Shown in pieces: positions 8,722 to 39,602 of a stretch of 64,000 nt of DNA. The notes beneath the pieces are model-generated. The model was not told the DNA's origin. It saw only the letters and a program-made list of their open reading frames with translations, and made no database searches. The position numbers and the translations under genes were made by a program. Each line of letters opens with the position of its first letter. The first letter of the stretch is position 1. Location of the stretch: contig DAIUCM010000004.1 of assembly GCA_036846145.1 (NCBI GenBank), positions 1,846 to 65,845 on the forward strand. The letters are read 5' to 3'. The stretch is from Bacteroidota bacterium. Its GTDB lineage: Bacteria > Bacteroidota > Bacteroidia > CAILMK01.

Positions 8722-8754
8722 CAGGCGGGATATTTTTTTTAACCGGTAATTTTT

Positions 8755-11288: not shown

Positions 11289-11304
11289 ATATTTACATAT
11301 ATAC

Positions 11305-11673
11305 ATGCGCGAAAAAGTACCTTATAATATAAACCTCGATGTAAAATTCGGGCATCATGAGCTGATAGATATTGCCCCGATTGTAACCGAAAACCAGCCA
11401 TGGTTCAACCAAACCTTAACACAGGTAAACGAAAGTGTGGTACGGATTGGAATAATTGAAGGCGATTTCCACTGGCATAAGCACGATAATGACGATGAGT
11501 TTTTCTTTGTGCTTGAAGGTACGCTTTTTATTGATTTGGAAGATAAAACCATAACGCTTGGCCCGCACCAGGGAACAACCATAAGCAAAGGTGTAATGCA
11601 CAGGCCGCGCGCACCAAAAAAAGTAGTTATGCTAATGGTTGAAACAAGTGAAATTAAACCAACCGGCGACTGA
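11305..11673 (+). CDS. Cupin-domain protein
   Basis: A 122-aa ORF with GDFHWHKH...FFFVLEG...HRP, a two-His cupin motif. Confidence 0.7.
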   Translation: MREKVPYNINLDVKFGHHELIDIAPIVTENQPWFNQTLTQVNESVVRIGIIEGDFHWHKHDNDDEFFFVLEGTLFIDLEDKTITLGPHQGTTISKGVMHRPRAPKKVVMLMVETSEIKPTGD

Positions 11674-18099: not shown

Positions 18100-18142
18100 C
18101 AGTTTTCAATTATTCAATTTTGCAATTCTCATATATCAAACC

Positions 18143-19561
18143 ATGAAAAAATACTTCCTCATAATCTGCATTTTAGGGTTTGTGCTGCTGCAAAGCTGCA
18201 TGACGTATTATGCGCGGAACAGGAAGTTCAACGAATTTTTTCAGCAGGGAAATATTGCGCAGGCGGAAGATATTATTTCGAAAGACAAAAAATCGCCGAA
18301 GAAAAACAGCCGTTTGCTGTATTTTCTCAACCGTGGTGTTGTGGCGCAGATGCTGGGAAAATACGATGAAAGCAACAAGCATTTCGATACGGCGCTGGTG
18401 ATTTCTGAAACCATCAAAAAAAATTACCTGGTAGATGCGGCGAGTTTCCTCACCAACCCGAACATTACGCCATACAAAGGCGAGGATTTCGAGCTGCTGA
18501 TGGTGCATTATTACAAGGCTTTCAACTACTTATATTTACGGAAATACGATGCCGCTTTGGTGGAATGCCGCCAGATGAACCTGAAACTGCAGGCTTTGAG
18601 CGATAAATACACCAAAGATAACCGTTATAAACGCGATGCATTTGTGCACAACCTGATGGGTATAATTTACGATGCGGATGGCGATTACAACAACGCTTTT
18701 ATTGCATACCGGAACGCACTTGAAATCTACGAAAATGATTATTCGAAACTGTACAATGTAAATGTTCCGGAGCAGTTAAAGCATGATATTATACGTTCTG
18801 CAAAACTTACCGGTTTCCATAGTGAAGCTGATTTTTACGAGCGGAAATTCAACCTGAAATACAAGCCGGATGATCTGACAAAAGGTGAACTTATATTTTT
18901 CTGGATGAATGGTTTAGGGCCGGTAAAAGATGAATGGAGTATTAATTTTATTGTACAGAAACCCGGCAACAACCTGGTAATTTTTCACAATGCCGATCTT
19001 GGAATTTCTTTCCCGTTTTACCATGAATATAATAATGAAGACAAGACTTCCGGTTTTTCACAGCTTGAGTTTGTTCGCGTAGTTTTGCCGCGCTACCTGG
19101 AAAGGCCTCCGGTTTATACATCAGCGGAGTTAAAAGCAAATGGCAACACGCAGAAACTGCAATTGGGGCAAAACATCAGTAAAATTGCTTACCAGAGTTT
19201 GCAGGACCGCATGACGCGTGAATTAAGCCAGAGCCTTTTACGACTGGCATTAAAAAAAGCAGCAGAATATTCGGCGAGGCAGCAAAACCAGAATGCAGGC
19301 GCAGCAGTTGGCTTGCTTAATTTTATTACCGAGCAGGCCGATACCAGAAACTGGCAAACACTTCCCCACTCTATTTATTACAGCCGCATGCAATTGCCTG
19401 AAGGCGAGCAAACTGTAGAGCTGAATATGTATGGCGTACAGGGTAAAAATTCAACGCAAAGTTTTACTTATAATATAAATAAAGGCAGAAAAACATTTCA
19501 CAGTTTCCATTCGCTGGCTGCACAGCCTGCTACGCTTTTCGGGCCGAATGCGTTGCGGTAA
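18143..19561 (+). CDS. TPR-like lipoprotein (COG3014-like)
   Basis: A lipobox (QSC) follows MKKYFLIICILGFVLL. The protein is helical and TPR-like, about 470 aa. I trimmed the start from the ORF-track position. Confidence 0.6.
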   Translation: MKKYFLIICILGFVLLQSCMTYYARNRKFNEFFQQGNIAQAEDIISKDKKSPKKNSRLLYFLNRGVVAQMLGKYDESNKHFDTALVISETIKKNYLVDAASFLTNPNITPYKGEDFELLMVHYYKAFNYLYLRKYDAALVECRQMNLKLQALSDKYTKDNRYKRDAFVHNLMGIIYDADGDYNNAFIAYRNALEIYENDYSKLYNVNVPEQLKHDIIRSAKLTGFHSEADFYERKFNLKYKPDDLTKGELIFFWMNGLGPVKDEWSINFIVQKPGNNLVIFHNADLGISFPFYHEYNNEDKTSGFSQLEFVRVVLPRYLERPPVYTSAELKANGNTQKLQLGQNISKIAYQSLQDRMTRELSQSLLRLALKKAAEYSARQQNQNAGAAVGLLNFITEQADTRNWQTLPHSIYYSRMQLPEGEQTVELNMYGVQGKNSTQSFTYNINKGRKTFHSFHSLAAQPATLFGPNALR

Positions 19562-20534: not shown

Positions 20535-20582
20535 TTTTAAGAATTTCCATATTTAACTTCGTCAAAAATACTTTAAACCTGA

Positions 20583-20620
20583 AACAAAAAAGCCGCTCCG
20601 AAATTTTCGGAGCGGCTTGT
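20583..20620. terminator. Bidirectional terminator between the convergent Mrr and YceI genes
   Basis: The stem gccgctccgaaa / tttcggagcggc has flanking A and T runs. Confidence 0.7.
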
Positions 20621-20646
20621 CCATATATGCTTATCGCTAAAAATGC

Positions 20647-21372
20647 TTAGTGTCCGTGACCTTCGTGGCTTTCGCCGCCAGCTGTATTACCGCCATCTTG
20701 CTTATTCGCTACCAGGTCAATATCTAAAGTAATATCGTTGCTGATGATTTTATTACCGGCCAGGTTTTTAAAGAAGCTTTCGGAATCGTAGCGAACATCA
20801 AACTTGCTGCGGTCAATTATTACGCGCGCTTTAGCTGTTGCTTTATCGTCCTTCACTTCAATTTTTGCCGGGAAGCCGATATTCTGCGTTTTATCTTTAA
20901 TTGTTAAATTACCTTCAACCCAGGTATTATTATCGTTTATTGATGAATCTTTTACAGAAGTAATTTCAAATTTAGAAGTCGGGTATTTCGCAACATCAAA
21001 AAAATCAGGGCTCTTTAAGTGGCCAACCAGTTTAGATTGTTTCTGGTCCTGCCCTTTCAGGTCCAGGCTGTTAACGCTGTTCATATCCATTACAAAAGTT
21101 CCGCCGGTAATTCTGTTTCCGGCAACCATAATATCACTTTCCTTCAGGTTTACGGTTCCGTTGTGCGAATCGCCGATATCAATTTTCTTGTGCCCTTCCC
21201 ATTTGAATGAACTTGCATTGGTATCAACAACATAGGCAACGGCTTCGGTACTGCTTTGCTCAACAGATTTTGCATCGGTAATTTGCGCTTCTGTTCCGCT
21301 TTTTGGGCCATTATCGCAAGCTGTAAGCGAAAGTGTTGCAATAGCTAAGGCCGATAAAAATACTTTTTTCAT
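20647..21372 (-). CDS. YceI-family lipoprotein (polyisoprenoid-binding-like)
   Basis: A 241-aa ORF with lipobox LTAC and a YceI-like beta-barrel sequence. Confidence 0.75.
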   Translation of the reverse strand: MKKVFLSALAIATLSLTACDNGPKSGTEAQITDAKSVEQSSTEAVAYVVDTNASSFKWEGHKKIDIGDSHNGTVNLKESDIMVAGNRITGGTFVMDMNSVNSLDLKGQDQKQSKLVGHLKSPDFFDVAKYPTSKFEITSVKDSSINDNNTWVEGNLTIKDKTQNIGFPAKIEVKDDKATAKARVIIDRSKFDVRYDSESFFKNLAGNKIISNDITLDIDLVANKQDGGNTAGGESHEGHGH

Positions 21373-22337: not shown

Positions 22338-23537
22338 ATGTCTGAAAATATAATACTTTGGGATTATACTTCCCATAAAGCGCTGCTGCCCTTTACATTT
22401 ACCCGTCCGGCTGCCCTTATCCGCTGCGGAATTTTAACCATTGCAGAAAAATATTCGCACTATTTTAAAAGTGAGGTTTCATTTTTTACTGAAGAATACC
22501 TGCAAAGAAAATTCACCCTTAGCATACATAAAGGTTCAAACCTTTTAATTAACGCTACTATTTTGCCCGATGATAATTTCATCAATGCCTGTAATAACCT
22601 TGCAGCCGGTGAAGTGCTTATGCAGGATGATGTTTTCCTGGCCGGGAAATTAAGCGCTGATGAAATTTCGCATATAGCAGGTTCGGAAAAAATACCTTCC
22701 GCCAAGCAACGAAATTATAATGAAAGCATTTCTGCCATTAACCATATATGGGATATTTTCTCCCGTAACGACCAGGAATTGCGTAAAGATTTCGCATTGC
22801 TGACAAAGGGAAGAAAATCTCAGCCGATACACGAGAGCAATTATGTAAAAAATGCTGAAAATATATTTTTAGAGGAAGGCGCCAAAGTAGAAAACGCAAG
22901 CCTGAATGCATCTGACGGACCAATTTATTTGGCTGCAGATGCTGAAATTATGGAAGGCAGCCTTGTTCGCGGCCCGTTTAGTCTGGGCGAACATTCGCAA
23001 CTGAAACTTGGCGCAAAGATATACGGCGCTACAACCATTGGCCCGCATTGTAAGGTTGGCGGCGAGGTAAACAACAGCGTGTTTTTCGGCTATGCCAATA
23101 AAGCGCACGATGGTTTTGTAGGTAACGCTGTAATTGGCGAATGGTGTAATTTAGGCGCGGACAGCAACAATTCAAACCTTAAAAACAATTACGAAGAAGT
23201 AAAAGTGTGGAGCTATGAGAAAAATGGCTTCGCACGCACAGGATTGCAATTTGCCGGCTTGTTTATGGGCGATCATAGCAAATGCGGCATCAATACCATG
23301 TTTAATACAGGAACGGTTGTCGGCGTAAGCGCGAATATTTTCGGCGGCGGTTTTCCACGCAATTTCATTCCTTCTTTCAGCTGGGGCGGCTCTTCCGGCT
23401 TTACAACTTACCAGCTGAATAAAGCTTTGGATACGGCGCAAAAAGTTTTCGAAAGGCGTAAAATACAGCTCAGCGAAGTTGATACTGCCATACTGAATCA
23501 TATCTTTGAAGAAACGAAACAGCACAGAAACTTTTAG
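22338..23537 (+). CDS. Putative sugar nucleotidyltransferase, GlmU-like, with left-handed beta-helix repeats
   Basis: A nucleotidyltransferase-like N-half is followed by C-terminal hexapeptide repeats (GATTIGPHCKVGGEV...). I take the start at the ATG at 22338. Confidence 0.6.
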   Translation: MSENIILWDYTSHKALLPFTFTRPAALIRCGILTIAEKYSHYFKSEVSFFTEEYLQRKFTLSIHKGSNLLINATILPDDNFINACNNLAAGEVLMQDDVFLAGKLSADEISHIAGSEKIPSAKQRNYNESISAINHIWDIFSRNDQELRKDFALLTKGRKSQPIHESNYVKNAENIFLEEGAKVENASLNASDGPIYLAADAEIMEGSLVRGPFSLGEHSQLKLGAKIYGATTIGPHCKVGGEVNNSVFFGYANKAHDGFVGNAVIGEWCNLGADSNNSNLKNNYEEVKVWSYEKNGFARTGLQFAGLFMGDHSKCGINTMFNTGTVVGVSANIFGGGFPRNFIPSFSWGGSSGFTTYQLNKALDTAQKVFERRKIQLSEVDTAILNHIFEETKQHRNF

Positions 23538-24397: not shown

Positions 24398-25237
24398 TTG
24401 CAGGGAATAACTTATTTGGAAGCCGAATTCAGCTCGCCGCAGCAAGATGTATTTGAAATACTGATGGCCGAGTTGGCCGATATTGGCTTTGAGAGCTTTA
24501 CGGAAGAAGAAGATTCACTTAAAGCATTTATACAGAAAGATATATATGCAGAAGCCGACTTCAGCGAACTTTGCGACAGGCTTCTGCATAAATTCCCGTT
24601 CAGCTATAAGCTGCGCGAAATAGCGCCGCAGAACTGGAACGCCGTTTGGGAAAGCAATTTTCCGGATATTACGGTTGATGATAAAGTGCATGTTCGCGCA
24701 CAATTCCATGAGCCAAAGCCGGAGTATCCTATTGAAATAGTCATTCAGCCGAAAATGAGCTTCGGCACCGGCCACCATGCCACCACCTGGAGCGTAATGA
24801 AGCTGATGCTGGACATAGATTTCAGCCATAAAAAAGTTTTTGATTTTGGTACAGGAACCGGAATTCTGGCTATTTTAGCGCAAAAACTGGGCGCTACAGA
24901 AATATGGGCGGTAGATAATGATCCGCAATGCATAGAAAACTCTGAAGAAAACTTTGAGCTGAACGATACGCAGGAAATTAAGCTTGCTTTGGGCGATATT
25001 ACCGCTTTTCAAAATAATACTTACGATATAATAATCGGCAATATTACACGTAATGTTATATTAGCCTTTATTGGGCAAATTGCAACTAATTTAAAGCAGA
25101 ACGGTGTATTTATTGCAAGTGGATTTTATGAAAACGATCTCGCTGTAATTGAGGAAGCTGCCGCTGCGCTTTCGCTGAAATTAAAAACAATGCAAAGCCG
25201 CGATAACTGGTGCGCCGCTGTTTTTACAAAACTATAA
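24398..25237 (+). CDS. prmA: Ribosomal protein L11 methyltransferase
   Basis: A 279-aa ORF with the SAM motif FDFGTGTGILAI. The start is TTG. Confidence 0.8.
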   Translation: MQGITYLEAEFSSPQQDVFEILMAELADIGFESFTEEEDSLKAFIQKDIYAEADFSELCDRLLHKFPFSYKLREIAPQNWNAVWESNFPDITVDDKVHVRAQFHEPKPEYPIEIVIQPKMSFGTGHHATTWSVMKLMLDIDFSHKKVFDFGTGTGILAILAQKLGATEIWAVDNDPQCIENSEENFELNDTQEIKLALGDITAFQNNTYDIIIGNITRNVILAFIGQIATNLKQNGVFIASGFYENDLAVIEEAAAALSLKLKTMQSRDNWCAAVFTKL

Positions 25238-25245
25238 GACTATTT

Positions 25246-28200
25246 ATGATTAAAAGATTCAGCTATTTTTTGTTCGGCCTATATATACTTTTCTCACAAA
25301 ATGCTTTGGCGCAGAAAAAAGATTTCCCTTCAGATCCGAAAATGTTTATTCAGGAGCTGCAGAAATTCTTTAGTGAAGATAAGCGCCAGGAAAGCCAGGA
25401 TGCGATTAAGATATTTTCAGAAGCATGGAACAAGAATGCTTATACTGCCGATGAGCAGGCCGAAATTATTGCCATGGCCAATTACATGCAGCAGGCCAAA
25501 CTGCGTGTAAATACCGATTTTACGCCTTATGTTGACCTGCTGAACGCTTATAAAAGCAAAAAAATAAGCCTCGATAAACTTAAAAATTATCACGAGGTAG
25601 CAAAACAGCTGATTGATAAATCGAAAAAAGACCTGAAAGATTTTACCGCAACGGCCAATGCTTTATTTAATGACCAGGCACTTTATAAAACGGATGTAAA
25701 AACCTGGAAAATAAGCAGCGATAAATATACTTTCGCCTTTACTAATGAAGCAGTAGTAAACCTCAGCGGAACCGATTTGCAGTTGCTTACGCGTGAAGAT
25801 ACAATGGGCATATATGCAACTGCCGGAAAATACTTCCCCGCTTCGGAAAAATGGATCGGTACAGGTGGAAATGTTTACTGGACGCGTGTTGGCTTTGCTA
25901 AAGACCGTGCCTTTGCCAAACTGCGTAACTATAATCTGAATATGAAAAGCAGTGAATATACTGCCGATTCTGTTGATTTTTCCTTCCCAAAAGTATTTGC
26001 GAAACCCATTTTAGGCAAGCTTCAGGATAAAGCAACAACAGATTTTCTTGGCGCAAAAGCATCTTATCCTCGCTTTAAGAGTTACCAGGCAATATTCGAA
26101 ATAAAAAATATTTTTAATAATATAGATTACAAAGGTGGTTTTACCCTTGAAGGAAACCAGATTTTAGGTACAGGCGTGGATTCCGCCCGTGCGCAGATAA
26201 CCATTAAATACAATAACAAAATTGCTTTACGCGCGCTATCCAACGCTTTCGTTATCAACCCCGATAATATTGCCGCATCGAAAGCAGCCGTTGCGGTTTA
26301 CCTTGACAAAGATTCGGTATTCCACTCGCAGCTTGTATTCAACTACCAGGAAAAAACCCGCCGTTTAAGCCTTAGCCGCGATATTCAGGGCCTTTACGCC
26401 GCTCCTTTTTACAGCACTTATCACCAGCTCGAGTTCATTAGCGGTAACCTTATCTGGCCCATTGATGAAGCGCTCGTACAGTTTAAAACAATCAGTAACC
26501 CCGACCAGGCAAGTGAATTTAAGTCGGGCAGCTTTTTCCGCGAGGCCGAATATATACAGGCGCAGGGCTTGCTTTCCTATCATCCGCTCAAAAAAATTGC
26601 AGGTTTTATTGTAGGTCAGAAATCGCCGATTATTCCTGTAGAAGACCTTGCCAATTACCTGAATAATAAAGTTGAATATATCAACAACCTCCTGTTTCAG
26701 CTTGCAAACCAAGGCTATATATTTTATGATATGGAAGGCAAAAAGATCATTGTTAAAGATAAGCTTATACATTATGTTAACGCAGCTGAAAGCGGGGCCG
26801 ATTTTGATAATATAAAGTTCGAATCGGTTATTTCTGCCAGGCCAAACGCTACAATAAGTTTATTAAATAATGATTTTAAACTGGAAGGTGTGCCGAGAAT
26901 TATGATCTCAGACTCGCAAAGCACTTATTTTCAGCCAACGGAGCAAACAGTAATTATTAAGAAGAACCGCGATATGGTTTTCAGCGGGCAGGTGCACTCG
27001 GGCCGTTTTGATTTTTATGGCAAGGATTTTATTTTTAATTACACACAATTCAATGTAATCCTTAATAATATCGACTCTGTAAAATTCAAGTTCCCTGAAT
27101 ATGATAAGAACGGGAAAGTAATTGGCATGCGTACTATACAGAATTCTTTACAAAACGTTAACGGCTTTTTGTATATAGATAAGCATAGCAATAAATCGGG
27201 AAAGCAAATGCTGGAAGACTACCCTATTTTTGAGTGTAATAAGGAATCGTTTGTTTATTATGACCGTAAGTCGATTTTTAATGGCGTTTATGACAGGGAT
27301 AATTTCTATTATAAAGTAAATCCATTCACTATTAAAAACCTCGATAAATTTACTGCGGAAGGCCTTCGTTTCCCGGGCAGCTTTACATCGGCGGATATTA
27401 TCCCGGAGATTAAGAACGACCTTACTATACAGGAAGATTTTTCACTGGGTTTTATACAGGAATCGCCTGCTGCTGGTTATAATATGTATAAGGGCAAAGG
27501 CAAAGGAACAGGCGTGTTTATGCTCAGTAACAAAGGCTTCCGAAGCAAAGGAACAATTGATTACCTGGTGTCTAAAACCACATCGCAGGAGTTTATGCTT
27601 TTTCCGGATTCAATGAAATCAAAAAGCGATGAATTTAACATGCCGCAAATCGCGAACGGAAAATATCCTCCTGTATTAGGTAAAGGCATTGCCAACCTCT
27701 GGAAACCTTATAAAGACAGTATGTATGTTTACAAAGGCAAGGAGCCAATTTCTGTATATAACGGTAAAATAGATTTTAATGGTAGCTTGATCCTTACACC
27801 TGTTGAACTGGTAGGAACCGGTAACATGGCCTACCAGAATCTTAATTTAACATCCACCGCATTTGCTTTTTTACCCAATAACGTAAAAGCCAAAAGCAGC
27901 GATTTAAGTATAAAAGGCATAGAAACCGGCGGCAAAGCTGCGGTTAAGGCCGATGATATAAACGCGGATATTGATTTAACGAAGGACTTTGGAAAGTTTG
28001 CGGCTAACGTGGACACCAGTAAAGTACAGCTGCCATCCAACAGGTTCTCTACTACGCTAAACAGGTTTACGTACGATATTGGCAATAAAGAAGTTGCATT
28101 TGCCAAGCGCGAAAAACAATCCGCTGAAGACGCCTATTTTATTTCTGAAAATCCGGAACAGGCAGGCTTAAAGTTTGAATCTCAGCGCGCATCTTATAAA

Positions 28201-30277: not shown

Positions 30278-30281
30278 ATTC

Positions 30282-30351
30282 CATATATAACAATAGCAAA
30301 AAATGCTTTAGGTAGAGATACTTAAAGCATTTTTTGTTAGTTGTATATATG
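30282..30351. repeat. Full dyad element: CATATAT-N9-AAAAAATGCTTTA-loop-TAAAGCATTTTTT-N8-TATATATG
   Basis: A near-perfect 70-bp dyad directly after the plsY stop. It is the prototype of a family that recurs in full or half form at 25 or more sites. Confidence 0.8.
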
Positions 30352-30671
30352 TGGATTTTTAATTTTCATTTATGGATATTTGCCTGCGCTAATTTAAACG
30401 CAGTGGAAATTAGTGCATACTCAGATTTCACACTCTCTGAGTGTACCATTTTAATACAAATTACAAATTAATAAACAGATAACCATTACCGAAGTGTATA
30501 TTTACAGCAGTGAAGCACAATATTGCAACAAAGAAATTATTGATTTGCATTAACAATTCAAATTATGGATTAATGAGCGTTTTTGAAAAGGTGCACTCTG
30601 AGAGTGCGGGTCATTTTAAGCACCAATCTCCGCTTGCGCTCAGATTGGCGCAAGCGAAAGGGTATTGGTTA

Positions 30672-30742
30672 CATATATAATTCAACATAAAAATGCTTGA
30701 GAAATTAATACTTAAAGTATTTTTTATAAGCAACCTATATGT
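30672..30742. repeat. Second full dyad element, a variant with AAAAATGCTTGAG...CTTAAAGTATTTTTT
   Basis: It has the same architecture as 30282-30351 and lies 320 bp away. Confidence 0.75.
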
Positions 30743-30804
30743 AAGTTAAGAACAATTCAGCTATGTTTTTGCTTTTGATTGGTAAAGAACCAAATTTACC
30801 AGCA

Positions 30805-31605: not shown

Positions 31606-31712
31606 CGGTTTGGCGTTGAGCGGTTTGCGATTGGCGATGTGAGATTTTCTGATAATTAAAAATCTTATATTTTGCCAGAATGTAATATATAATACAATTA
31701 AAAATGCTTTAA

Positions 31713-32233: not shown

Positions 32234-34930
32234 ATGCGTATAGGTATTTTTTTCGGAGGAAAATCACGTGAGCGGGAAATATCTTTTGCCGGCGGAAGAA
32301 CGGTTTATGATCTTTTGGATAAATCGCTGTTTACACCGGTGCCGATTTTTGTTGACAGCCTTGGCAACTTTATTGAGCTGGACTGGCAATATCTGTACAA
32401 GGGCAGCATCCGCGATTTTTATCCGCCTGTTTCTTCCTTGCAAACCACTAAATTACCTTTCCAGGTTTATATAGAAAGCTTAAACTTACCGGAGGAAGAT
32501 ATTGATAAGGCTATTGCGCAAGTAGGTAAAAAACGCAGCATAGCGGAAATTAAAACACTAATAGATTTTGCTTTTCTTGCGCTGCACGGGCCGTTTGGTG
32601 AAGACGGAAGCCTGCAGGGCTTGTTCGAGTTTTATAATATCCCATATTCCGGTTCCGGCATTTTACCATCTGCCATTGGCATAGATAAACGTGTGCAGAA
32701 AGAACTGATGCAAAGCATGAATTTGCAGGTTGCAAAAGCCATATATGTAACCCGTAAAAAATGGTTCGATTCGCAGGAAAACCGCAAAGATCTGTTTACC
32801 GAAGCGCAGCAAAACTTCAACTTGCCTGTAGTTATCAAATCATCTACACAAGGCTCCTCTATAGGAATTTCTATTTTGCGCAACTGGGATTTTGTAACGT
32901 TTGAATCCCAGATAAATGAAAGCTTCTTCCAAAAAACCATATTTGCGGCCGATTGGAAAAAACTTACCGCTGAAGAAGAAAAACGCAGGTTTGTACAGCA
33001 GGTTAGCGATATTTATGAAGGTTACGGTATTCCATTCCTGATCAATAATAAAACCTGGGTTTATCATCCGCAGCAATTATTCGATTTCCTTGACGATCAT
33101 TTCAACCAAAATAATGAGCCTGTAACACTTGAAAGTTACCAGGGCGAAAGAGCTGTTTTAATTGAGGAGTTTATAAAAGGCAAAGAATTCAGCTGCATAG
33201 TTGTGGAAGGCGAACATGGCGAAGCTATTGCCCTCCCTCCTACCGAGATCATAAAATCTACCGATATTTTCGATTATCGTTCCAAATATTTGCCGGGCAT
33301 TTCCAGGAAAGTTACTCCTATAGAATTACCGGAAGAGATTGTAAACCATATAAGTGCGGCTTGCGAGGAATTATATAAAAATCTGCATTTCAACGTTTAC
33401 GCGCGTATTGACGGGTTAATTACAGCCGATGGCAAGATTTACCTTAATGATCCGAATACCACTTCGGGAATGCTGCCATCATCTTTTTTCTTTCACCAGG
33501 CGGCTGAGATCGGCGTCTCGCCAAGCCAGTTTTTAACGTACATTATTTTTAAATCTTTCGAAAACCGCATAGCTTCATCGCCAAATCCGCACCAGGTCAT
33601 TCAAAGCTTTAAAACGCTGCAAAACAGCCTTACTTACAATGCGCAGCACAATGCAGGCAAACAAAAAGTAGGAGTAATTTTAGGCGGAATTTCTACCGAA
33701 AGACATATTTCCGTAGAGAGCGGCAGAAATGTTTACGAGAAATTATCGAGCAGCGGAAAATACGATGCTTCACCGGTTTTCCTCACCGGGAAAGATGGTG
33801 AAATAGAGTTTTATACTTTACCGTTAAATCTTTTACTGAAAGATAATGCCGATGATATTGCCGATAAAGCCAGGCATTTCCACATTTCGCCAATTACAGA
33901 AAAAATCATTGAAAAAGCGAGATATATTACGGAGAAATTTGCATCGAGCAACTATAATTTCTATCCAAAAAAGGTAACATTAGATGAACTGCAGCAAACG
34001 GTTGACAGTATTTTTATTGCATTGCATGGCAGGCCGGGCGAAGATGGAACGCTGCAGAAACTGCTCGAGGCGCGTGGAATGCCATACAACGGCTCCAGTT
34101 CCGATTCATCGTCGGTAACAATCAATAAATTTATTACCAACGAAAAGCTGAGAGAAAACGGATTTCTTATTCCGCAACATATATTGGTAACAAGGCAAAA
34201 ATGGCAGGCCAATAAAACCGCCATATTAGCTGAGATTGAAAAATACCTTCAGTTTCCCTGCATTGCAAAACCGGCCGATGACGGCTGCTCATCGGCAGTA
34301 AAGAAAATTAACAACCGTGCTGAATTTGAGGCTTTTGCAGAAGGTATGTTCCGCACACAGGAAGCACTTGATAAGGACATTTTACGCATTCTTGATCTGA
34401 AAGCGAGTGAAGAGTTTCCGCAGAAAGATTTCTTTGTTGTGGAAGAACTGGTAAGTCCCAAAGGCGCTAAGCATTTCCTGGAAATTACCGGCGGTATGCT
34501 TACCCGTAAAAACGGGCAGAACGAGGTAACTTACGAGATCTTCGAACCGAGTGAAGCATTGGCCCAAAAAGGCATATTATCGCTCGAGGAGAAATTCCTG
34601 GCCGGAGAAGGGCAGAATATAACGCCGGCAAGATTTTCGGCATTTACTGAAGAGAACAGCATGATTTCCGCAACTGTACGGAATACTTTAATGGAAGCCG
34701 CCAAAGTATTAAATATAGAAGGTTATTGCAGGATCGACGCTTTCGTAAGGATATATGATGCGAGGCATGTTGAGGTTATTTTTATTGAAGTGAACTCGCT
34801 GCCGGGCTTAACTCCCGCAACCTGTATTTTCCACCAGGCAGCTTTAAACGGCTACAAACCATTTGATTTTTTAGACCAGATTATACAATACGGAATTTCT
34901 AAAGTACAAGGCATTGAAGAAAATAATTGA
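32234..34930 (+). CDS. Tandem-duplicated D-alanine--D-alanine ligase-like protein with two Ddl N-domain plus ATP-grasp modules
   Basis: The 898-aa ORF shows a Ddl signature twice: MRIGIFFGGKSREREIS...LHGPFGEDGSLQ in the first half and KVGVILGGISTERHIS...LHGRPGEDGTLQ in the second. Confidence 0.8.
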   Translation: MRIGIFFGGKSREREISFAGGRTVYDLLDKSLFTPVPIFVDSLGNFIELDWQYLYKGSIRDFYPPVSSLQTTKLPFQVYIESLNLPEEDIDKAIAQVGKKRSIAEIKTLIDFAFLALHGPFGEDGSLQGLFEFYNIPYSGSGILPSAIGIDKRVQKELMQSMNLQVAKAIYVTRKKWFDSQENRKDLFTEAQQNFNLPVVIKSSTQGSSIGISILRNWDFVTFESQINESFFQKTIFAADWKKLTAEEEKRRFVQQVSDIYEGYGIPFLINNKTWVYHPQQLFDFLDDHFNQNNEPVTLESYQGERAVLIEEFIKGKEFSCIVVEGEHGEAIALPPTEIIKSTDIFDYRSKYLPGISRKVTPIELPEEIVNHISAACEELYKNLHFNVYARIDGLITADGKIYLNDPNTTSGMLPSSFFFHQAAEIGVSPSQFLTYIIFKSFENRIASSPNPHQVIQSFKTLQNSLTYNAQHNAGKQKVGVILGGISTERHISVESGRNVYEKLSSSGKYDASPVFLTGKDGEIEFYTLPLNLLLKDNADDIADKARHFHISPITEKIIEKARYITEKFASSNYNFYPKKVTLDELQQTVDSIFIALHGRPGEDGTLQKLLEARGMPYNGSSSDSSSVTINKFITNEKLRENGFLIPQHILVTRQKWQANKTAILAEIEKYLQFPCIAKPADDGCSSAVKKINNRAEFEAFAEGMFRTQEALDKDILRILDLKASEEFPQKDFFVVEELVSPKGAKHFLEITGGMLTRKNGQNEVTYEIFEPSEALAQKGILSLEEKFLAGEGQNITPARFSAFTEENSMISATVRNTLMEAAKVLNIEGYCRIDAFVRIYDARHVEVIFIEVNSLPGLTPATCIFHQAALNGYKPFDFLDQIIQYGISKVQGIEENN

Positions 34931-35678: not shown

Positions 35679-35710
35679 CATTTTTCAGCACTAAAAGCAT
35701 TTTTTACAGT

Positions 35711-37666
35711 ATGTATATATGTAAGCTCCGTTATATTTCTGCAACTATTGTATTTATTATATCATGCCTGGCAGCAACCGCGCAGGAATATGTTGTACCG
35801 TTAAAATATAATTCCTTATTAGATACATATATACAGGCTCCAAAAAATACTTCGGGCAAACCAGTAAGGCTTAGCAGACATGGCGAGCCGCATACGCAGT
35901 ATCTCCCGTTTTTCGATGATTTTTCGAATGGATTCCTGCACCCGAATGATACCCTTTGGCTGGACAGGAATGTGTACATCAGCAACACCATGGGTATTGA
36001 TCCGCCAAGCGTTGGCGTTGCCGTTTTTGATGGTATAAACGAATTTGGCAGGGCTTATAATCCGGGCGATCAGGGCACAGGCTCAGCAGGTACAGATACA
36101 CTTACAAGTACGTATATAGATCTTTCAGACTTCTCGCCGCTCGATACAACCATTTATCTCAGCTTTGCTTACCAGCCTGCAGGTCTGGGCGATGCTGGCG
36201 AGCCAACTGATTCGCTTATTCTGCAATTCCACCCGGATTCATTGCTGATAAACGGTGTTTGGGACGATTCCGCATGGGTAAATGTATGGTCGGTTCCGGG
36301 CAGTGCGTTTAAGCCTTTCCAGCATGTAATGATCCCCATCCGTAAACTTACATCACCAAACTATTTTCATAAGAAATTCCAGTTCAGGTTCGTAGCAAGA
36401 GGGCACCGTTCCGGGAATTTAGATAACTGGCTGCTGGATTATGTTTATGTAAACCGTGGCAGAACCAGGACAAATGTGGGAAATAATGTAATAGACCCAC
36501 AGATACAGGATGTGGCCAATTATAAAACATCGGGCAGTATTTTGAACGGTTATTACGCCATGACGATGAAACAATTTCTTGCGGGCGGAACAAACAGCCT
36601 TATCGGCGAAATCCCGATTCATGCTACAAACAACTCCAATGTTGTAAAAAATACAACCTACGGCTACAATATTGTTAATGCAGAAACCGGTCAGGAGCTG
36701 GCAACTTTTTTTGATTCGGAAGGCGACAACGTAAACCCGTTTGAGCACCGCAGTTTCGCGCTGATGAATATCTTATCGCCAAACAATATTCCTGGCCCAA
36801 AATCTACCTTGCTAATTAATACAGTTGTAGAAAGCGTGCCGGACCGTTTCCGCAGTAATGATACCGCAACACATAAGCAGGTTTTTGGCGATTACCTGGC
36901 ATATGATGACGGAACCGCAGAAGCAGGCTATGGCGTAAACAACGCGAATACCGGGAAAGTAGCCATTCGGTTTTCGCTTAATACACCCGATACATTGCAT
37001 GGCATTGCCATAAACTTTAACCAGTCCAATACCTATGTTGGAGGCCGTTTTGTGAACCTGGCTGTATGGCACAAACTTACACCGCCCGGGCAGATTGAAA
37101 AAGATGAACCAGCCGCGAGAATAACCTTTGTCAGGCCGGTTTATGAAAGAGTAAACGGCTACAGCTATTTCGAATTCGAAGAGCCTGTACCGGTTAAAGA
37201 TGAATTTTACATTGGCTGGGTGCAGAACCAGAATTTCAATCTTAATGTTGGCCTGGACAGGAACTACAATGAATTACCGGGTACAAAAGCTGATAATCTT
37301 TTCATCAGCTATGCGGGAAAATGGGAAGTTTCTAAAGTAGATGGCATACCGATGCTTAGGCCGTACATTGGCAGCAACCCGGTTTTTGTTGGAACAGAAA
37401 AACATCCGAAAACACAATTTAACATACTGGACGCCAACATTTATCCGAACCCTAACAACGGAGATTTCAACATACACTTACCAGAAAAAGGCAATTACGA
37501 AATCACTGTTTTTGATATAGCCGGTAAACCTGTATTACAAACATTGCAAACACGCATCAGCACCAGCTTATCATTACCGCAGGTTAAGGCAGGCTTATAC
37601 CTCGTTAAAATAACGGAAAAAAACAGCGGCAGGCAGGTTGTTAAACGCATTTCTGTACTAAAATAG
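35711..37666 (+). CDS. Secreted protein with a T9SS C-terminal sorting domain
   Basis: A signal peptide plus the C-terminus NIYPNPNNGDFNIHLP...KAGLYLVKI..., typical of a T9SS CTD. Confidence 0.75.
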   Translation: MYICKLRYISATIVFIISCLAATAQEYVVPLKYNSLLDTYIQAPKNTSGKPVRLSRHGEPHTQYLPFFDDFSNGFLHPNDTLWLDRNVYISNTMGIDPPSVGVAVFDGINEFGRAYNPGDQGTGSAGTDTLTSTYIDLSDFSPLDTTIYLSFAYQPAGLGDAGEPTDSLILQFHPDSLLINGVWDDSAWVNVWSVPGSAFKPFQHVMIPIRKLTSPNYFHKKFQFRFVARGHRSGNLDNWLLDYVYVNRGRTRTNVGNNVIDPQIQDVANYKTSGSILNGYYAMTMKQFLAGGTNSLIGEIPIHATNNSNVVKNTTYGYNIVNAETGQELATFFDSEGDNVNPFEHRSFALMNILSPNNIPGPKSTLLINTVVESVPDRFRSNDTATHKQVFGDYLAYDDGTAEAGYGVNNANTGKVAIRFSLNTPDTLHGIAINFNQSNTYVGGRFVNLAVWHKLTPPGQIEKDEPAARITFVRPVYERVNGYSYFEFEEPVPVKDEFYIGWVQNQNFNLNVGLDRNYNELPGTKADNLFISYAGKWEVSKVDGIPMLRPYIGSNPVFVGTEKHPKTQFNILDANIYPNPNNGDFNIHLPEKGNYEITVFDIAGKPVLQTLQTRISTSLSLPQVKAGLYLVKITEKNSGRQVVKRISVLK

Positions 37667-38259: not shown

Positions 38260-38521
38260 AATTGCACGCCATATTTCCATATAGCTGTTATGCAAAAAAT
38301 GCTTTGTCAGCGTATTTAATTTTATTAAAACTTCAGCAGAATTTATAAAGCCAATATTCATTTCCTGATACAATAAACCGACCCATGTTTAAACAACTAT
38401 AATTTTTATAACTTGCTGATACACTTTGCCATTTTTTGTTTTATATTGCTGATGATTATGTTAGAAAACTGACCGCGGCACAAGTTGCCGGAACCCAAAC
38501 CATAAATAAACAAACCCACCC

Positions 38522-39385
38522 ATGAGGCAGCTGAAAATTGTTAAACAAATCACAAACCGCGAGCATAAATCGCTCGACAAGTATTTACAGGAAATTGGCA
38601 GTGTTGATATGGTAACTGCCGAAGAAGAAGTTGATCTTGCATTAAGAATAAGAGATGGCGACAGCATTGCGCTTGCAAGACTTGTTAATGCCAATCTGCG
38701 TTTTGTAGTTTCTGTAGCAAAACAGTATCAGAACCAGGGTTTGCCGCTTGGCGACCTGATAAACGAAGGTAATTTAGGGCTTATTAAAGCAGCCCAGCGA
38801 TTTGATGAAACCCGTGGATTCAAATTTATATCTTACGCGGTATGGTGGATTCGCCAGAGCATTTTACAATCGCTTGCAGAGCAGGCGCGTATGATAAGGT
38901 TGCCTTTGAACAGGATTGGCGCCTTATCCAAAATTAATAAAGCAGCATCTGTACTTGAACAGCGATATGAACGTGAACCATCAACCGCCGAAATTGCCGA
39001 ACTGCTGGAAATTACAGAAGACAGCGTACAGGAATATATGACTGTTTCAGCAAGGCATTTATCATTAGATGCGCCGGTTAATACGGAAGATGACAGCTCA
39101 TTATCTTCACTGCTTGAAAACACAGATGAACCAACACCGGATTCACCGCTATTAAGAGAATCTTTACAAAGCCAGATCGCGAATTCGTTAACTATATTAT
39201 CGGAAAAAGAACGTTGCGTGCTGAATTACTTCTTCGGCATAAATAATGTGAGGGAACATTCGCTGGAGGAAATAAGCTCGGCACTTGACCTTACAAGGGA
39301 AAGGGTACGACAGATCAAAGAAAACGCCATTCGCAAGCTGCGGAACTCATCGCGTACCAAGCAGCTGAAGCATTTTTTAGGATAG
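38522..39385 (+). CDS. rpoD: RNA polymerase primary sigma factor (sigma-70 family, Bacteroidota-type, 287 aa)
   Basis: Regions 2-4 are present, ending ERVRQIKENAIRKLR. Confidence 0.9.
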   Translation: MRQLKIVKQITNREHKSLDKYLQEIGSVDMVTAEEEVDLALRIRDGDSIALARLVNANLRFVVSVAKQYQNQGLPLGDLINEGNLGLIKAAQRFDETRGFKFISYAVWWIRQSILQSLAEQARMIRLPLNRIGALSKINKAASVLEQRYEREPSTAEIAELLEITEDSVQEYMTVSARHLSLDAPVNTEDDSSLSSLLENTDEPTPDSPLLRESLQSQIANSLTILSEKERCVLNYFFGINNVREHSLEEISSALDLTRERVRQIKENAIRKLRNSSRTKQLKHFLG

Positions 39386-39602
39386 CAGCATATACCAAAC
39401 AAACTTTTCAACCGGAAGGCCGCGCATTGTTTATGCAGCGGCTTTTTGCATATACAGGTTGGCTGAAAAATGCTTTGAAATAACCTGCATTATGACAATG
39501 TAAATTGAATCTTATAATTAATTTAAAAATATCTAATAGCACGTACATAGATAAAAAGTGGACTGATTACTTAAGCCGCTATTCAATAATCAAGAAATAA
39601 AT

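What the first reader, a model, noticed from the sequence alone, without database searches (positions are those of the whole stretch)
30282..30351. Pervasive dyad-symmetric intergenic element (CATATAT-N9-AAAAAATGCTTTA / TAAAGCATTTTTT-N9-ATATATG)
A near-perfect 70-bp dyad sits directly after the plsY stop, and a second full copy lies at 30672-30742. Half-copies or variants in either orientation occur at 25 or more further intergenic sites. Examples: 404-431, 8695-8721, 31684-31764, 35693-35721, 38278-38307, 43169-43197, 46624-46652, 46750-46778, 47883-47913, 48088-48116, 51159-51187, 52349-52377, 53429-53463, 54884-54912, 55709-55736, 55940-55969 and 60743-60771. They lie upstream of plus-strand genes in both orientations, at convergent gene ends, and fused to GC-rich terminator stems, as in 31713-31753 and after the ffh stop. 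Spacing does not fit a sigma-70 -35/-10 pair or the Bacteroidota -33 TTTG/-7 TAnnTTTG promoter. It behaves like a REP/BIME-like palindromic unit specific to this lineage. That is a dispersed element family that could act as a terminator, an mRNA stabiliser, a binding site for a nucleoid or regulatory protein, or a miniature mobile element.
Basis: seen in the sequence. Interest (0 to 1): 0.7.

Follow-up and report, generated by a model that had tools for sequence, protein, structure and literature searches.

The report
Uptake-signal-like bipartite DNA word
A 28-base two-part DNA word (CCATATAT, ten free bases, AAAAATGCTTT) occurs about once per kilobase, on both strands and even inside conserved genes, in one uncultured Sphingobacteriales-like lineage, a pattern otherwise known only from the DNA-uptake sequences of Haemophilus and Neisseria relatives.

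Summary
The unit is not the 70-bp dyad. It is an asymmetric bipartite word, cCATATATa-N9/10-AAAAATGCTTTr, with fixed spacing and an unconserved spacer. The window holds 54 copies against 0.3 expected by chance, 31 on + and 23 on -.

Thirty-three copies are intergenic (2.9/kb). Twenty-one lie inside real genes (0.4/kb), in all three frames and both orientations. In iPGM, AlaRS and a Mur ligase they align without gaps to homologues, so they arose by substitution, not insertion.

The dyads are two convergent units at a fixed 41-42 nt offset. Orientation relative to genes is random (tandem intergenic 27 forward, 23 reverse; 16 copies in convergent gaps), which argues strongly against a promoter.

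The same word saturates related metagenomic genomes. It is absent from the six nearest AlaRS relatives and essentially absent (3 weak hits) from 1.3 Mb of other Bacteroidota.

It meets every shared USS/DUS property I could compute except even spacing, which was inconclusive. It fails the REP/BIME and MITE criteria, and the clade has a separate REPIN/RAYT-like element.

Best reading (0.4): an uptake-signal-like recognition word whose inverted pairs double as terminators. Function is inferred, not shown.

The parts
30279..30312 (+). motif copy, left arm of dyad 1, 2 nt after plsY stop
   Evidence: PWM 38.0 bits; dyad arms 85% complementary; hairpin -38.9 kcal/mol
30321..30354 (-). motif copy, right arm of dyad 1 (convergent, 42-nt offset)
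   Evidence: PWM 33.3
30669..30702 (+). motif copy, left arm of dyad 2
   Evidence: PWM 28.8
30711..30744 (-). motif copy, right arm of dyad 2 (42-nt offset), 20 nt before M48 peptidase gene
   Evidence: PWM 26.1
401..434 (+). motif copy, intergenic
   Evidence: PWM 35.0
532..565 (+). motif copy, intergenic, 40 nt before terminator hairpin 605-636
   Evidence: PWM 27.4
2499..2532 (+). motif copy overlapping 3' end of DUF4153 gene (-)
   Evidence: PWM 17.8
3044..3077 (-). weak motif copy inside DUF4153 gene, sense
   Evidence: PWM 16.3
4208..4241 (-). motif copy, intergenic
   Evidence: PWM 26.1
5984..6017 (+). motif copy at 5' edge of gene 5351-5989 (-), pointing away from it
   Evidence: PWM 18.5
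8222..8255 (+). motif copy inside Lactamase_B_2 gene, antisense, within the Pfam domain
   Evidence: PWM 36.5
8691..8724 (-). motif copy, divergent intergenic region
   Evidence: PWM 19.5
11293..11326 (+). motif copy at boundary between genes 10851-11288 and 11305-11673
   Evidence: PWM 21.0
13485..13518 (-). weak motif copy inside Mur ligase gene, sense
   Evidence: PWM 13.5
14216..14249 (-). motif copy inside Mur ligase gene (aa 48-58), sense, gap-free against PDB MurC/Mpl
   Evidence: PWM 24.6
15036..15069 (-). motif copy inside GT2 glycosyltransferase gene, sense
   Evidence: PWM 28.8
15501..15534 (+). motif copy inside GT2 gene, antisense, within the domain
   Evidence: PWM 29.6
15873..15906 (+). 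motif copy inside GT2 gene, antisense
   Evidence: PWM 37.4
16263..16296 (-). motif copy inside polysaccharide deacetylase gene (aa 100-110, within the domain), sense
   Evidence: PWM 30.3
18127..18160 (+). motif copy in 5' part of TPR ORF (may lie upstream of the true start)
   Evidence: PWM 18.0
20548..20574 (+). variant copy (27-nt spacing) between Mrr gene stop and terminator hairpin
20619..20652 (+). motif copy abutting terminator 20590-20618 in a convergent gap; orthologous copy conserved in L131
   Evidence: PWM 31.5; alignment
22668..22701 (+). motif copy inside NTP_transf_4 gene, sense; convergent pair with the next copy (52-nt offset)
   Evidence: PWM 22.8
22720..22753 (-). motif copy inside NTP_transf_4 gene, antisense
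   Evidence: PWM 27.7
24518..24551 (-). motif copy inside PrmA gene, antisense
   Evidence: PWM 28.5
25277..25310 (+). motif copy near 5' end of 1482-aa ORF, sense
   Evidence: PWM 29.1
25806..25839 (+). motif copy inside 1482-aa ORF, sense
   Evidence: PWM 22.2
31684..31710 (+). variant copy (27-nt spacing) directly before terminator hairpin 31711-31755
32737..32770 (+). motif copy inside D-Ala-D-Ala ligase-like gene, sense; box 2 overlaps a 6-aa indel against a distant PDB homologue
   Evidence: PWM 22.8
35691..35724 (-). motif copy, 13 nt after PASTA-domain gene stop
   Evidence: PWM 35.8
35823..35856 (+). motif copy in 5' part of T9SS-cargo ORF
   Evidence: PWM 28.7
38275..38308 (+). motif copy, 16 nt after stop of gene 37783-38259, 215 nt before the sigma-70-family gene
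   Evidence: PWM 35.3
39364..39397 (-). weak copy overlapping the 3' end of the sigma-factor gene
   Evidence: PWM 12.5
39446..39479 (+). motif copy, convergent intergenic gap
   Evidence: PWM 34.3
39644..39677 (-). motif copy between stop of T9SS-cargo gene and terminator 39638-39606; orthologue in L227
   Evidence: PWM 17.9
42816..42849 (+). motif copy, divergent region; destroyed by a 9-nt deletion in L227
   Evidence: PWM 27.4
43166..43199 (+). best-scoring copy, 133 nt upstream of alaS; boxes conserved in L227 within otherwise unalignable DNA
   Evidence: PWM 40.4
44743..44776 (+). weak copy inside alaS, sense; conserved in L227
   Evidence: PWM 16.9
44952..44985 (-). motif copy inside alaS, antisense (aa 542-552), gap-free against 21 Bacteroidota AlaRS, in their most variable stretch
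   Evidence: PWM 35.6
46621..46654 (+). motif copy, 15 nt after stop of gene 46019-46606; part of a 66-bp block duplicated at 48085
   Evidence: PWM 30.3
46747..46780 (+). motif copy ending 3 nt before the ATG of the wHTH gene
   Evidence: PWM 29.2
47880..47913 (+). motif copy, intergenic
   Evidence: PWM 35.9
48085..48118 (+). motif copy 48 nt upstream of gatB; orthologue in L227
   Evidence: PWM 29.4
49647..49680 (+). weak copy 20 nt after gatB stop; identical in L227
   Evidence: PWM 12.1
51157..51190 (+). motif copy upstream of pseudouridine synthase gene; weaker orthologue in L227
   Evidence: PWM 33.8
52346..52379 (-). motif copy, tandem intergenic, reverse to both flanking genes
   Evidence: PWM 27.2
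53427..53460 (-). weak copy upstream of ffh, reverse orientation
   Evidence: PWM 13.1
54880..54913 (-). motif copy overlapping ffh stop, abutting terminator hairpin 54910-54935
   Evidence: PWM 35.2
55706..55739 (+). motif copy, convergent gap after cyclophilin gene
   Evidence: PWM 22.7
55938..55971 (-). motif copy, convergent gap, 12 nt from bidirectional terminator 55983-56028
   Evidence: PWM 34.5
57191..57224 (-). motif copy inside iPGM gene, sense; encodes ITYISQLENALT, gap-free against PDB 2ify/1ejj
   Evidence: PWM 33.4
59180..59213 (-). motif copy, convergent gap
   Evidence: PWM 28.8
59916..59949 (-). motif copy inside M42 peptidase gene, sense
   Evidence: PWM 19.6
60740..60773 (+). 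motif copy, convergent gap, overlapping 3' end of the GSHPx gene
   Evidence: PWM 32.3
62665..62698 (+). motif copy inside ORF 62389-63090 (-), antisense
   Evidence: PWM 33.5
63416..63449 (-). motif copy, intergenic; orthologue conserved in L193
   Evidence: PWM 24.6

Best explanation
The element is a clade-specific recognition word for a sequence-specific DNA-binding machinery. The word is cCATATATa, then 9-10 free bases, then AAAAATGCTTTr, with box centres about two helical turns apart.

Shown:
- Copies are not spread by transposition. Each arises and decays in place by point substitution or small indels, in non-coding DNA and inside genes.
- The consensus stays very sharp while the spacer drifts.
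- Density is about 0.8 per kb in at least three distinct related genomes.

Inferred: this is the genomic footprint of a DNA-uptake signal of the USS/DUS type. A surface DNA receptor would take up fragments carrying the word preferentially, and recombination of that DNA would drive the word to saturation. It would accumulate where it is tolerated: after stop codons, in long intergenic regions and in variable protein segments.

Two convergent copies at a fixed 41-42 nt offset form an A-tract/hairpin/T-tract. This probably serves as a bidirectional terminator, as inverted uptake-sequence pairs are thought to do.
For: Abundance and sharpness:
- 54 copies in 64 kb against 0.3 expected.
- About 27 bits of information against about 11 bits needed for that frequency.
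- Mismatch spectrum over 18 specified positions, for 0, 1, 2 and 3 mismatches: 10, 16, 18 and 7 observed against 0, 0, 0.05 and 0.65 expected. This is an unusually strong consensus.

Strand and orientation:
- No significant strand bias: 31:23, p = 0.34.
- No orientation rule in tandem intergenic regions: 27 forward, 23 reverse, p = 0.67.
- 16 copies lie in convergent gaps and 14 in divergent regions.

Coding copies:
- 21 of 54 are inside genes, most with Pfam support, in all three frames and both orientations.
- Copies in iPGM, AlaRS and a Mur ligase align gap-free to homologues, in variable segments.

Intergenic density is 7.3-fold higher than coding density, similar to what I recall for the neisserial DUS (the comparison is my own knowledge).

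Pairs: convergent pairs at 41-42 nt occur three times. Divergent pairs sharing the CATATATG box occur three times. Dyad 1 folds at -38.9 kcal/mol.

Phylogeny:
- The same consensus occurs at 0.75/kb in the syntenic relative L227 (82-90% nt identity in its best-conserved genes).
- It also occurs in 41 contigs of metagenome Ga0157371, one of which is 72% nt identical to the window over an orthologous stretch.
- It is absent from the six nearest AlaRS relatives (78 kb, 0 copies). 1.31 Mb of other Bacteroidota holds 3 copies.

Conservation and turnover: some orthologous copies are conserved in otherwise unalignable DNA, and others are gained or lost between close relatives.

These are the shared USS/DUS properties listed in PMC1626085. 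That paper uses the same gap test.
Against:
- I found no published uptake specificity for any Bacteroidota.
- None of the roughly 53 window ORFs scanned against Pfam matched a competence family. A 64-kb sample says little either way.
- Coding copies are 2:1 sense over antisense (31:16, p = 0.04). Drive alone does not predict this.
- Many copies touch terminator hairpins or stop codons. That could point to a transcription-unit boundary function instead.
- Conservation of orthologous copies fits site-by-site selection for an intracellular binding protein equally well.
- Spacing is only weakly more even than random (CV 0.81 against 0.97, p = 0.09).
- One of four gap tests (Ddl) shows a 6-aa indel under box 2, though against a distant homologue.
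Confidence: 0.4

Rival explanations
1. Dense array of high-affinity sites for an abundant, clade-specific intracellular DNA-binding protein. Candidates include a nucleoid organiser, a transcription-unit insulator or roadblock, or a chromosome-maintenance factor. Each site would be kept by selection for that function rather than by uptake bias.
For: - Two boxes about two helical turns apart, with a free spacer, look like a two-domain or dimeric protein footprint.
- Intergenic enrichment is 7-fold.
- Copies often sit between a stop codon and a terminator hairpin, or flank hairpins.
- Same-orientation arrays at 90-130 bp occur in long intergenic regions.
- Orthologous copies stand out as footprints in unalignable DNA.
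Against: - About 27 bits against about 11 bits needed is far more specificity than regulatory or architectural sites normally carry, and the consensus is sharper than point-mutation-derived binding sites usually are (argument as in PMC1626085).
- It is hard to see why about 40% of sites would be placed in enzyme-coding sequence in any frame.
- No positional rule relative to starts or stops was found.
Confidence: 0.3
2. Promoter of a clade-specific or alternative sigma factor, with box 1 as the -35 analogue and box 2 as the -10/-7 analogue. Forward copies upstream of genes would drive mRNAs and the rest would drive antisense or spurious transcripts.
For: - Box geometry is compatible with sigma-70-family spacing.
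- In the window about 18 forward copies lie 3-275 nt upstream of same-strand genes, by manual tally.
- The roughly 12 genes with a forward copy upstream have no exact TAnnTTTG within 100 nt, and vice versa.
Against: - Clade-wide, orientation in tandem intergenic regions is 27 forward to 23 reverse.
- 16 copies are in convergent gaps and 47 are inside genes.
- Distances to start codons are broad for both orientations.
- alaS has its own perfectly conserved 52-75 nt block next to the ATG, separate from the motif.
- ffh, PPIase and pgm carry standard -33/-7 promoters.
- About 27 bits is far above a housekeeping promoter.
- Neither orientation of the word matches TTGACA/TATAAT or TTTG/TAnnTTTG (read directly from the consensus).
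Confidence: 0.07
3. REP/BIME-like or MITE-like mobile repeat. A palindromic unit would be copied around the genome by a transposase such as a RAYT.
For: - It is a dispersed, lineage-specific, mostly intergenic family.
- Two full dyads exist.
- A Y1-transposase (RAYT-like) gene exists in the close relative L227.
- A 66-bp block containing the motif is duplicated around a 1.4-kb insertion.
Against: - The single unit is not a palindrome.
- The spacer has about 0 bits, so copies do not share descent by copying.
- 21 of 54 copies are intragenic in all frames. Three of the four tested are gap-free against homologues.
- Gain and loss between close relatives occurs by substitutions and small indels, not by presence or absence of a 28-70 bp block.
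- The Y1 transposase is flanked by a different 120-bp triple-hairpin repeat.
Confidence: 0.04
4. RNA-level element: a 3'-UTR terminator or stabiliser module that acts in the transcript.
For: - Dyads fold strongly.
- Many copies lie between a stop codon and a terminator hairpin, so they would be transcribed.
Against: - Single units have no internal complementarity.
- Both orientations occur after genes.
- Antisense and in-frame coding copies cannot act as 3'-UTR modules.
- There is no Rfam match.
Confidence: 0.05

Closest known systems
Uptake signal sequence (USS) of Pasteurellaceae (AAGTGCGGT core plus two phased AT-rich segments, about 29-32 bp)
   Same: - Density about 1 per kb.
- Both strands equally.
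- Preferentially non-coding, but many coding copies that are not insertions.
- Very strong consensus.
- Extended multi-segment motif of about 30 bp with A/T tracts.
- Close inverted pairs.
- Shared by relatives and restricted to a lineage.
(Properties as listed in PMC1626085; tested.)
   Different: - The sequence is unrelated.
- The host is Bacteroidota, not Gammaproteobacteria.
- It has two equally strong boxes instead of one core plus weak flanks.
- A lower coding share: 39% here against 65% in H. influenzae.
- Uptake bias and a receptor are untested.
DNA uptake sequence (DUS) of Neisseriaceae (GCCGTCTGAA, 10-12 bp)
   Same: - About 1 per kb.
- Strong consensus.
- Strong intergenic preference.
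- Frequent inverted pairs behind genes that resemble terminators.
- Lineage-restricted.
(PMC1626085, plus my own knowledge.)
   Different: DUS is a single short word without flanking motifs. This element is 28 nt and bipartite. The DUS receptor ComP is known, and nothing comparable is known here.
REP/BIME and REPIN-RAYT systems
   Same: A dispersed, lineage-specific repeat with strong intergenic enrichment, pairs in inverted orientation, and positions after genes.
   Different: REP units are hairpin-forming, strictly extragenic and copied as whole units by a RAYT. This unit is asymmetric, has a free spacer, and occurs in genes by substitution. The clade's RAYT-like gene is flanked by another repeat.
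HIP1 (GCGATCGC) of cyanobacteria (from my own knowledge)
   Same: An over-represented DNA word present in coding and non-coding DNA. It is maintained at the DNA level, is lineage-specific, and has no settled function.
   Different: HIP1 is an 8-bp palindrome linked to methyltransferases. This element is a 28-nt non-palindromic bipartite word.
Bacteroidota sigma-A promoter (-33 TTTG / -7 TAnnTTTG) (from my own knowledge)
   Same: Two boxes with a spacer. Box 2 often ends in TTTG. Many copies lie upstream of genes.
   Different: The sequence does not match and orientation relative to genes is random. Copies also occur in convergent gaps and inside genes. Standard -33/-7 matches occur separately.

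Membership tests
USS/DUS-type uptake sequence | About one copy per kb (thousands per genome) | tested here: met
   0.84/kb in the window (54 in 64 kb) and 0.75/kb in L227 (17 in 22.7 kb). A whole-genome count was not available.
USS/DUS-type uptake sequence | No significant orientation bias | tested here: met
   31:23 on the two strands, p = 0.34. Tandem intergenic 27 forward to 23 reverse, p = 0.67. Caveats: coding copies are 31 sense to 16 antisense, p = 0.04, and the pooled clade strand count is 103:76, p = 0.052.
USS/DUS-type uptake sequence | Preferentially non-coding, but many copies in coding DNA | tested here: met
   2.9/kb intergenic against 0.40/kb coding. 21 of 54 copies lie inside genes.
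USS/DUS-type uptake sequence | Coding copies arose by point mutation, not insertion (gap analysis) | tested here: met
   iPGM, AlaRS (21 homologues) and a Mur ligase are gap-free across the motif. The Ddl copy overlaps a 6-aa indel against a distant homologue and is inconclusive.
USS/DUS-type uptake sequence | Unusually strong consensus (perfect and near-perfect copies dominate) | tested here: met
   Copies with 0, 1, 2 and 3 mismatches over 18 positions: 10, 16, 18 and 7. About 27 bits of information against 11 bits needed.
USS/DUS-type uptake sequence | [quoted passage not shown] | tested here: met
   Three convergent pairs at 41-42 nt, one at 52 nt, and three divergent pairs at 20 nt.
USS/DUS-type uptake sequence | Over-represented in relatives and lineage-restricted | tested here: met
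   Present in L227, the Ga0157371 contigs, L219, L153, L152 and L193. Absent from the six nearest AlaRS relatives; 1.3 Mb of other Bacteroidota holds only 3 hits.
USS/DUS-type uptake sequence | Spacing more regular than random | tested here: inconclusive
   CV 0.81 against 0.97 for random placement, p = 0.09.
USS/DUS-type uptake sequence | Competent cells preferentially take up DNA carrying the word | not testable with these tools
   Needs a cultured clade member and uptake competition assays.
USS/DUS-type uptake sequence | Genome encodes DNA-uptake machinery and a sequence-specific receptor | not tested
   Only 64 kb plus fragments are in hand. None of the roughly 53 window ORFs scanned against Pfam matched a competence family, which is uninformative.
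REP/BIME (REPIN) | The unit is an imperfect palindrome that forms a hairpin | tested here: not met
   The boxes CATATAT and AAAAATGCTTT are not complementary. Only two-copy dyads fold.
REP/BIME (REPIN) | Extragenic | tested here: not met
   21 of 54 copies lie inside genes, most of them Pfam-supported.
REP/BIME (REPIN) | Copies share the whole unit sequence (spread by copying), with a cognate RAYT flanked by the repeat | tested here: not met
   The spacer carries about 0 bits. The Y1_Tnp gene in L227 is flanked by a different 120-bp repeat.
MITE | Terminal inverted repeats, target-site duplication, and presence/absence of the whole element between relatives | tested here: not met
   Differences between orthologous sites are substitutions or small indels inside the unit. 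Three of the four coding copies tested are gap-free; the fourth was inconclusive.
Bacteroidota sigma-A promoter | -33 TTTG and -7 TAnnTTTG, oriented towards a downstream gene at a bounded distance | tested here: not met
   There is no sequence match. Orientation is 27:23, with 16 copies in convergent gaps and broad distances to start codons. Standard promoters are found separately.
Intrinsic terminator | G+C-rich hairpin followed by a U run | tested here: inconclusive
   A single unit has no hairpin. Dyad 1 folds at -38.9 kcal/mol and is called terminator-like, but its stem is A/T-rich. Dyad 2 folds at only -13.9 kcal/mol.

The most novel reading that the evidence does not exclude
This is the first DNA-uptake signal sequence outside the Proteobacteria. 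An uncultured Sphingobacteriales-like clade would be naturally transformable, with a receptor that reads a 28-bp bipartite word, and biased uptake plus recombination would have written about 3,000 copies into its genome, including into housekeeping genes.
Probability: 0.3. Interest if true: 0.9.

Novelty: new variant of a known kind. Interest (0 to 1): 0.75.

Why it matters
As far as I know (PMC1626085 as of 2006; four literature searches here found nothing further), genome-saturating uptake words are known from only two proteobacterial families. How they arise, by molecular drive or by selection, is still debated.

An independent, sequence-unrelated case in Bacteroidota would provide a third natural replicate with young turnover visible between close relatives. 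It would predict natural transformation with self-preference in an uncultured soil or water lineage. It would also give a precise bait for finding the receptor.

If the word instead marks sites of an intracellular protein, a 27-bit motif embedded once per kb in coding and non-coding DNA would still be an unusual kind of chromosome-wide signal.

In practice, the word is a sharp marker for assigning metagenomic contigs to this clade.

Tried and rejected
- Promoter reading. I tallied orientation and distance to genes in the window and then clade-wide. It is rejected because orientation is random and many copies lie in convergent gaps or inside genes.
- An apparent mutual exclusion between forward copies and exact TAnnTTTG matches in the window did not survive as evidence once clade-wide orientation was counted.
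- Mobile-element reading. Rejected by the gap analysis, the free spacer, and the separate REPIN/RAYT-like element.
- Known RNA families. Rfam at gathering threshold on the whole window and at E-value threshold on 30250-30800 gave only noise. There are no tRNAs.
- Protein motif reading. Rejected because copies use all frames and both strands.
- Replichore-polar signal (KOPS- or Chi-like). There are no runs of one orientation along the window.
- Viral contigs. 19 single exact matches and no contig with more than one copy, consistent with chance hits.
- GTDB representative genomes through GatB. The best hit is only 57-59% identical and none carries the motif.
- The six nearest AlaRS relatives were fetched hoping for clade members. 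None has the motif. Three of them were also checked for any comparably abundant 9-mer, and none has one.
- Literature. Searches for the sequence and for uptake sequences in Bacteroidota found nothing relevant.
- Sigma-factor gene in the window. A comparison with PDB sigma factors gave no handle on promoter specificity.
Full report
**1. The observation**

The sequence at 30282-30351 is a near-perfect dyad placed 2-5 nt after the stop of a gene whose product matches PF02660, glycerol-3-phosphate acyltransferase PlsY.
- Its arms are 33 nt and 85% complementary.
- As RNA it folds at -38.9 kcal/mol, z = -10.7.
- A second dyad at 30672-30742 is 70% identical to the first, essentially only in the boxes, and folds weakly at -13.9 kcal/mol.

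The 12-mer core with up to 2 mismatches occurs 79 times against 37.7 expected. Aligning those hits showed that a CATATAT box sits at a fixed distance upstream of AAAAATGCTTT.
- Requiring both boxes with at most 1 mismatch each gives 35 copies at one spacing. That is 28 nt from the C of CATATAT to the last T of GCTTT. Only three copies are 27-nt variants.
- A weight matrix over 34 nt finds 54 copies above 12 bits against 0.3 expected, and 42 above 20 bits against 0.
- Information is confined to positions 0-8 and 18-29. The spacer and flanks are near zero.

So the repeating unit is an asymmetric bipartite word. The dyads are two convergent units.

**2. Where the copies lie**

The window is 82% ORF by a longest-ORF call.
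- Thirty-three copies are intergenic or at gene edges (2.9/kb). Twenty-one are fully inside ORFs (0.40/kb). The enrichment is 7.3-fold.
- Most host ORFs are real genes with Pfam matches (two have none), and where the position was checked the motif lies inside the matched domain. They include Lactamase_B_2, a Mur ligase, a GT2 glycosyltransferase, a polysaccharide deacetylase, NTP_transf_4, PrmA, Ddl, AlaRS, iPGM and an M42 peptidase.
- Coding copies use all three frames in both orientations: sense 4/6/4 and antisense 2/1/4. This is therefore a DNA-level word, not a peptide motif.
- The strand split is 31:23, p = 0.34.

**3. Insertion or substitution**

- In iPGM the copy encodes ITYISQLENALT and aligns without a gap to the solved enzymes 2ify and 1ejj.
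- In AlaRS the antisense copy covers TKHFSAEVDME. It aligns without a gap to 21 Bacteroidota AlaRS sequences and occupies their most variable stretch.
- The Mur ligase copy is also gap-free.
- A weaker Ddl copy overlaps a 6-residue indel against a distant homologue, which is inconclusive.

At least three coding copies were therefore written in by substitution. This is the test Redfield and colleagues used to show that USSs are not insertions (PMC1626085).

**4. Not a promoter**

In the window alone, forward copies upstream of same-strand genes are common (manual tally). Genes with such a copy lack an exact TAnnTTTG, which briefly kept a promoter reading alive.

With all clade sequence pooled (167 copies of at least 15 bits), the picture is different:
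- Tandem intergenic regions hold 27 forward and 23 reverse copies, p = 0.67.
- Convergent gaps hold 16 copies and divergent regions 14.
- Genes hold 47 copies.
- Distances to start codons are broad for both orientations.

Other points against a promoter:
- alaS has its own perfectly conserved 52-75 nt block next to the ATG, separate from the motif 133 nt upstream.
- ffh, the cyclophilin gene and pgm have standard -33/-7-type matches.
- The word carries about 27 bits where about 11 bits would suffice for its frequency.

**5. Not a REP, BIME or MITE**

- The single unit cannot fold on itself and its spacer is free.
- Many copies are intragenic.
- Differences between orthologous sites in close relatives are substitutions or small indels inside the unit, not presence or absence of a block.
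- The close relative L227 encodes a Y1 transposase (PF01797, RAYT-like). It is flanked by three copies of a different repeat of about 120 bp made of three hairpins, and one copy of that repeat lies at window 31788-31917. The clade therefore has a REPIN/RAYT-like system, and the motif is not part of it.

**6. Phylogenetic distribution**

The organism is a Bacteroidota, as shown by T9SS sorting domains. Its AlaRS cluster mates are named 'Sphingobacteriales bacterium' or 'Bacteroidia bacterium'. The nearest named genus is Solitalea, at 62% AlaRS identity.

Where the word is absent:
- Eighty GatB loci from GTDB representatives (1.31 Mb) hold 3 weak hits.
- The six nearest AlaRS relatives (63-69% aa identity, 78 kb) hold none.

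Where the word is present:
- An exact-pattern scan of metagenome contigs returned many contigs with several copies.
- Forty-one contigs of Ga0157371 carry 89 copies in 71 kb with the same consensus. Thirty-five of those copies were not selected by the search pattern.
- One of these contigs (L131) is 72% nt identical to window 20699-21979, so it comes from a distinct species.
- L227, from a 434-kb ENA contig, is syntenic with the window (alaS 90% and the gatB region 82% nt identity). It carries 17 copies in 22.7 kb.

Orthologous copies are conserved at several sites. Examples are the alaS antisense copy (33/34 identical), 20619+ against L131, 63416- against L193, and 43166+ as an island in unalignable DNA. 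Other copies are gained or lost: 42816+ is destroyed in L227, and L227 9717+ is absent from the window.

Viral contigs gave only single exact matches, consistent with chance.

**7. Consensus strength and pairs**

Over 18 specified positions, the window has 10, 16, 18 and 7 copies with 0, 1, 2 and 3 mismatches. The expected counts are 0, 0, 0.05 and 0.65.

Close pairs come in set geometries:
- Convergent pairs at 41-42 nt occur three times. One of these is the L227 dyad, which fills a 77-bp convergent gap.
- One convergent pair at 52 nt lies inside a gene.
- Divergent pairs at 20 nt, sharing the palindromic CATATATG box, occur three times.
- Same-orientation arrays at 90-150 nt occur in long intergenic regions, with unrelated sequence between the units.

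Several strong terminator hairpins have a copy within 40 nt, on either side and in either orientation.

**8. Interpretation**

PMC1626085 lists these shared properties of USS and DUS:
- about one copy per kb;
- no orientation bias;
- somewhat regular spacing;
- close inverted pairs;
- a non-coding preference with many coding copies;
- presence in relatives;
- an unusually strong consensus;
- origin by mutation rather than insertion.

All of these are met here except regular spacing, which is inconclusive (CV 0.81 against 0.97, p = 0.09).

I know of no other process that writes a motif of more than 25 bits into enzyme-coding DNA at 0.4/kb by substitution. The two options are biased uptake plus recombination, or site-by-site selection for a chromosome-wide protein signal. 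I therefore rank the uptake-signal reading first (0.4) and a dense array of sites for an abundant intracellular protein second (0.3). Promoter, mobile-element and RNA-element readings are each at or below 0.07.

What is shown: the anatomy, the statistics, origin by substitution, lineage restriction, and turnover. What is inferred: the uptake function and the terminator role of the dyads.

Points that do not fit neatly are the 2:1 sense bias of coding copies (p = 0.04) and the frequent contact with terminator hairpins.

**9. Novelty**

Literature searches for the sequence and for uptake sequences in Bacteroidota found nothing relevant. The behaviour is that of a known kind of element (USS/DUS), but with an unrelated, bipartite word in a new phylum and with its function unproven. 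I therefore rate it a new variant of a known kind and of high interest.

Noticed in passing
window 30352-30671: A 320-nt segment with no ORF longer than 56 aa lies between the two dyads. It folds into one long imperfect hairpin (-88.9 kcal/mol, z = -4.75) with 24-nt arms at 30431-30454 and 30583-30606. It has no Rfam match and no second copy in any sequence fetched.
   Followed up: partly
window 46621-46690 and 48085-48155; insertion 46690-48084: A block of about 66 bp is duplicated. It consists of one motif copy followed by three ATTGGCTAATT units. The two blocks flank a 1.4-kb segment absent from the syntenic relative L227. That segment carries a winged-helix (Penicillinase_R-like) ORF and, in another frame, a Fic-type motif (PFADGNKRTAR). 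This looks like a frameshifted wHTH-Fic gene inserted between direct repeats.
   Followed up: partly
window 31788-31917; L227 19263-19372, 19936-20067, 20114-20231: A repeat of about 120 bp made of three hairpins, unrelated to the motif. In L227 three copies flank a 153-aa Y1 transposase gene (PF01797) at 19385-19846, like a REPIN/RAYT system. Two of these copies are each directly preceded by a motif copy.
   Followed up: partly
window 43255-43329 (upstream of alaS): The last 52-75 nt before the alaS ATG are identical between the window and L227, while the rest of the intergenic region is unalignable. This is probably the real promoter and leader.
   Followed up: partly
window 63230-63320: This block is strongly conserved with contig L193 (MWVZ01004578.1) upstream of the hypothetical gene 62389-63090 (-). 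It includes AAATATGCTTTAAAGC and could be a regulatory element or small RNA.
   Followed up: no
window 31605-31640, 32161-32173, 51087-51113, 51215-51240: Short runs of GCGGTTT / AAACCGC units sit at gene boundaries, G-rich after stops and C-rich before starts. They are partly conserved in L227 and form a second small dispersed motif.
   Followed up: no
window and clade loci, coding copies: Coding copies of the motif are twice as often in the sense orientation as in the antisense orientation (31:16, p = 0.04). Intergenic copies show no such bias. This is unexplained.
   Followed up: partly
window 32234-34930: An 898-aa protein with D-Ala-D-Ala ligase N- and C-terminal domains matched in several stretches, apparently a fused or duplicated Ddl.
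   Followed up: no
window 19623-20534: An Mrr-type (type IV) restriction endonuclease gene, followed by a motif-terminator-motif arrangement.
   Followed up: no
window 47828-47860: A short tandem-like run, GGTTGTAAAGTTGCAAGGTTGTAAGGTTGC, lies just upstream of motif copy 47880.
   Followed up: no
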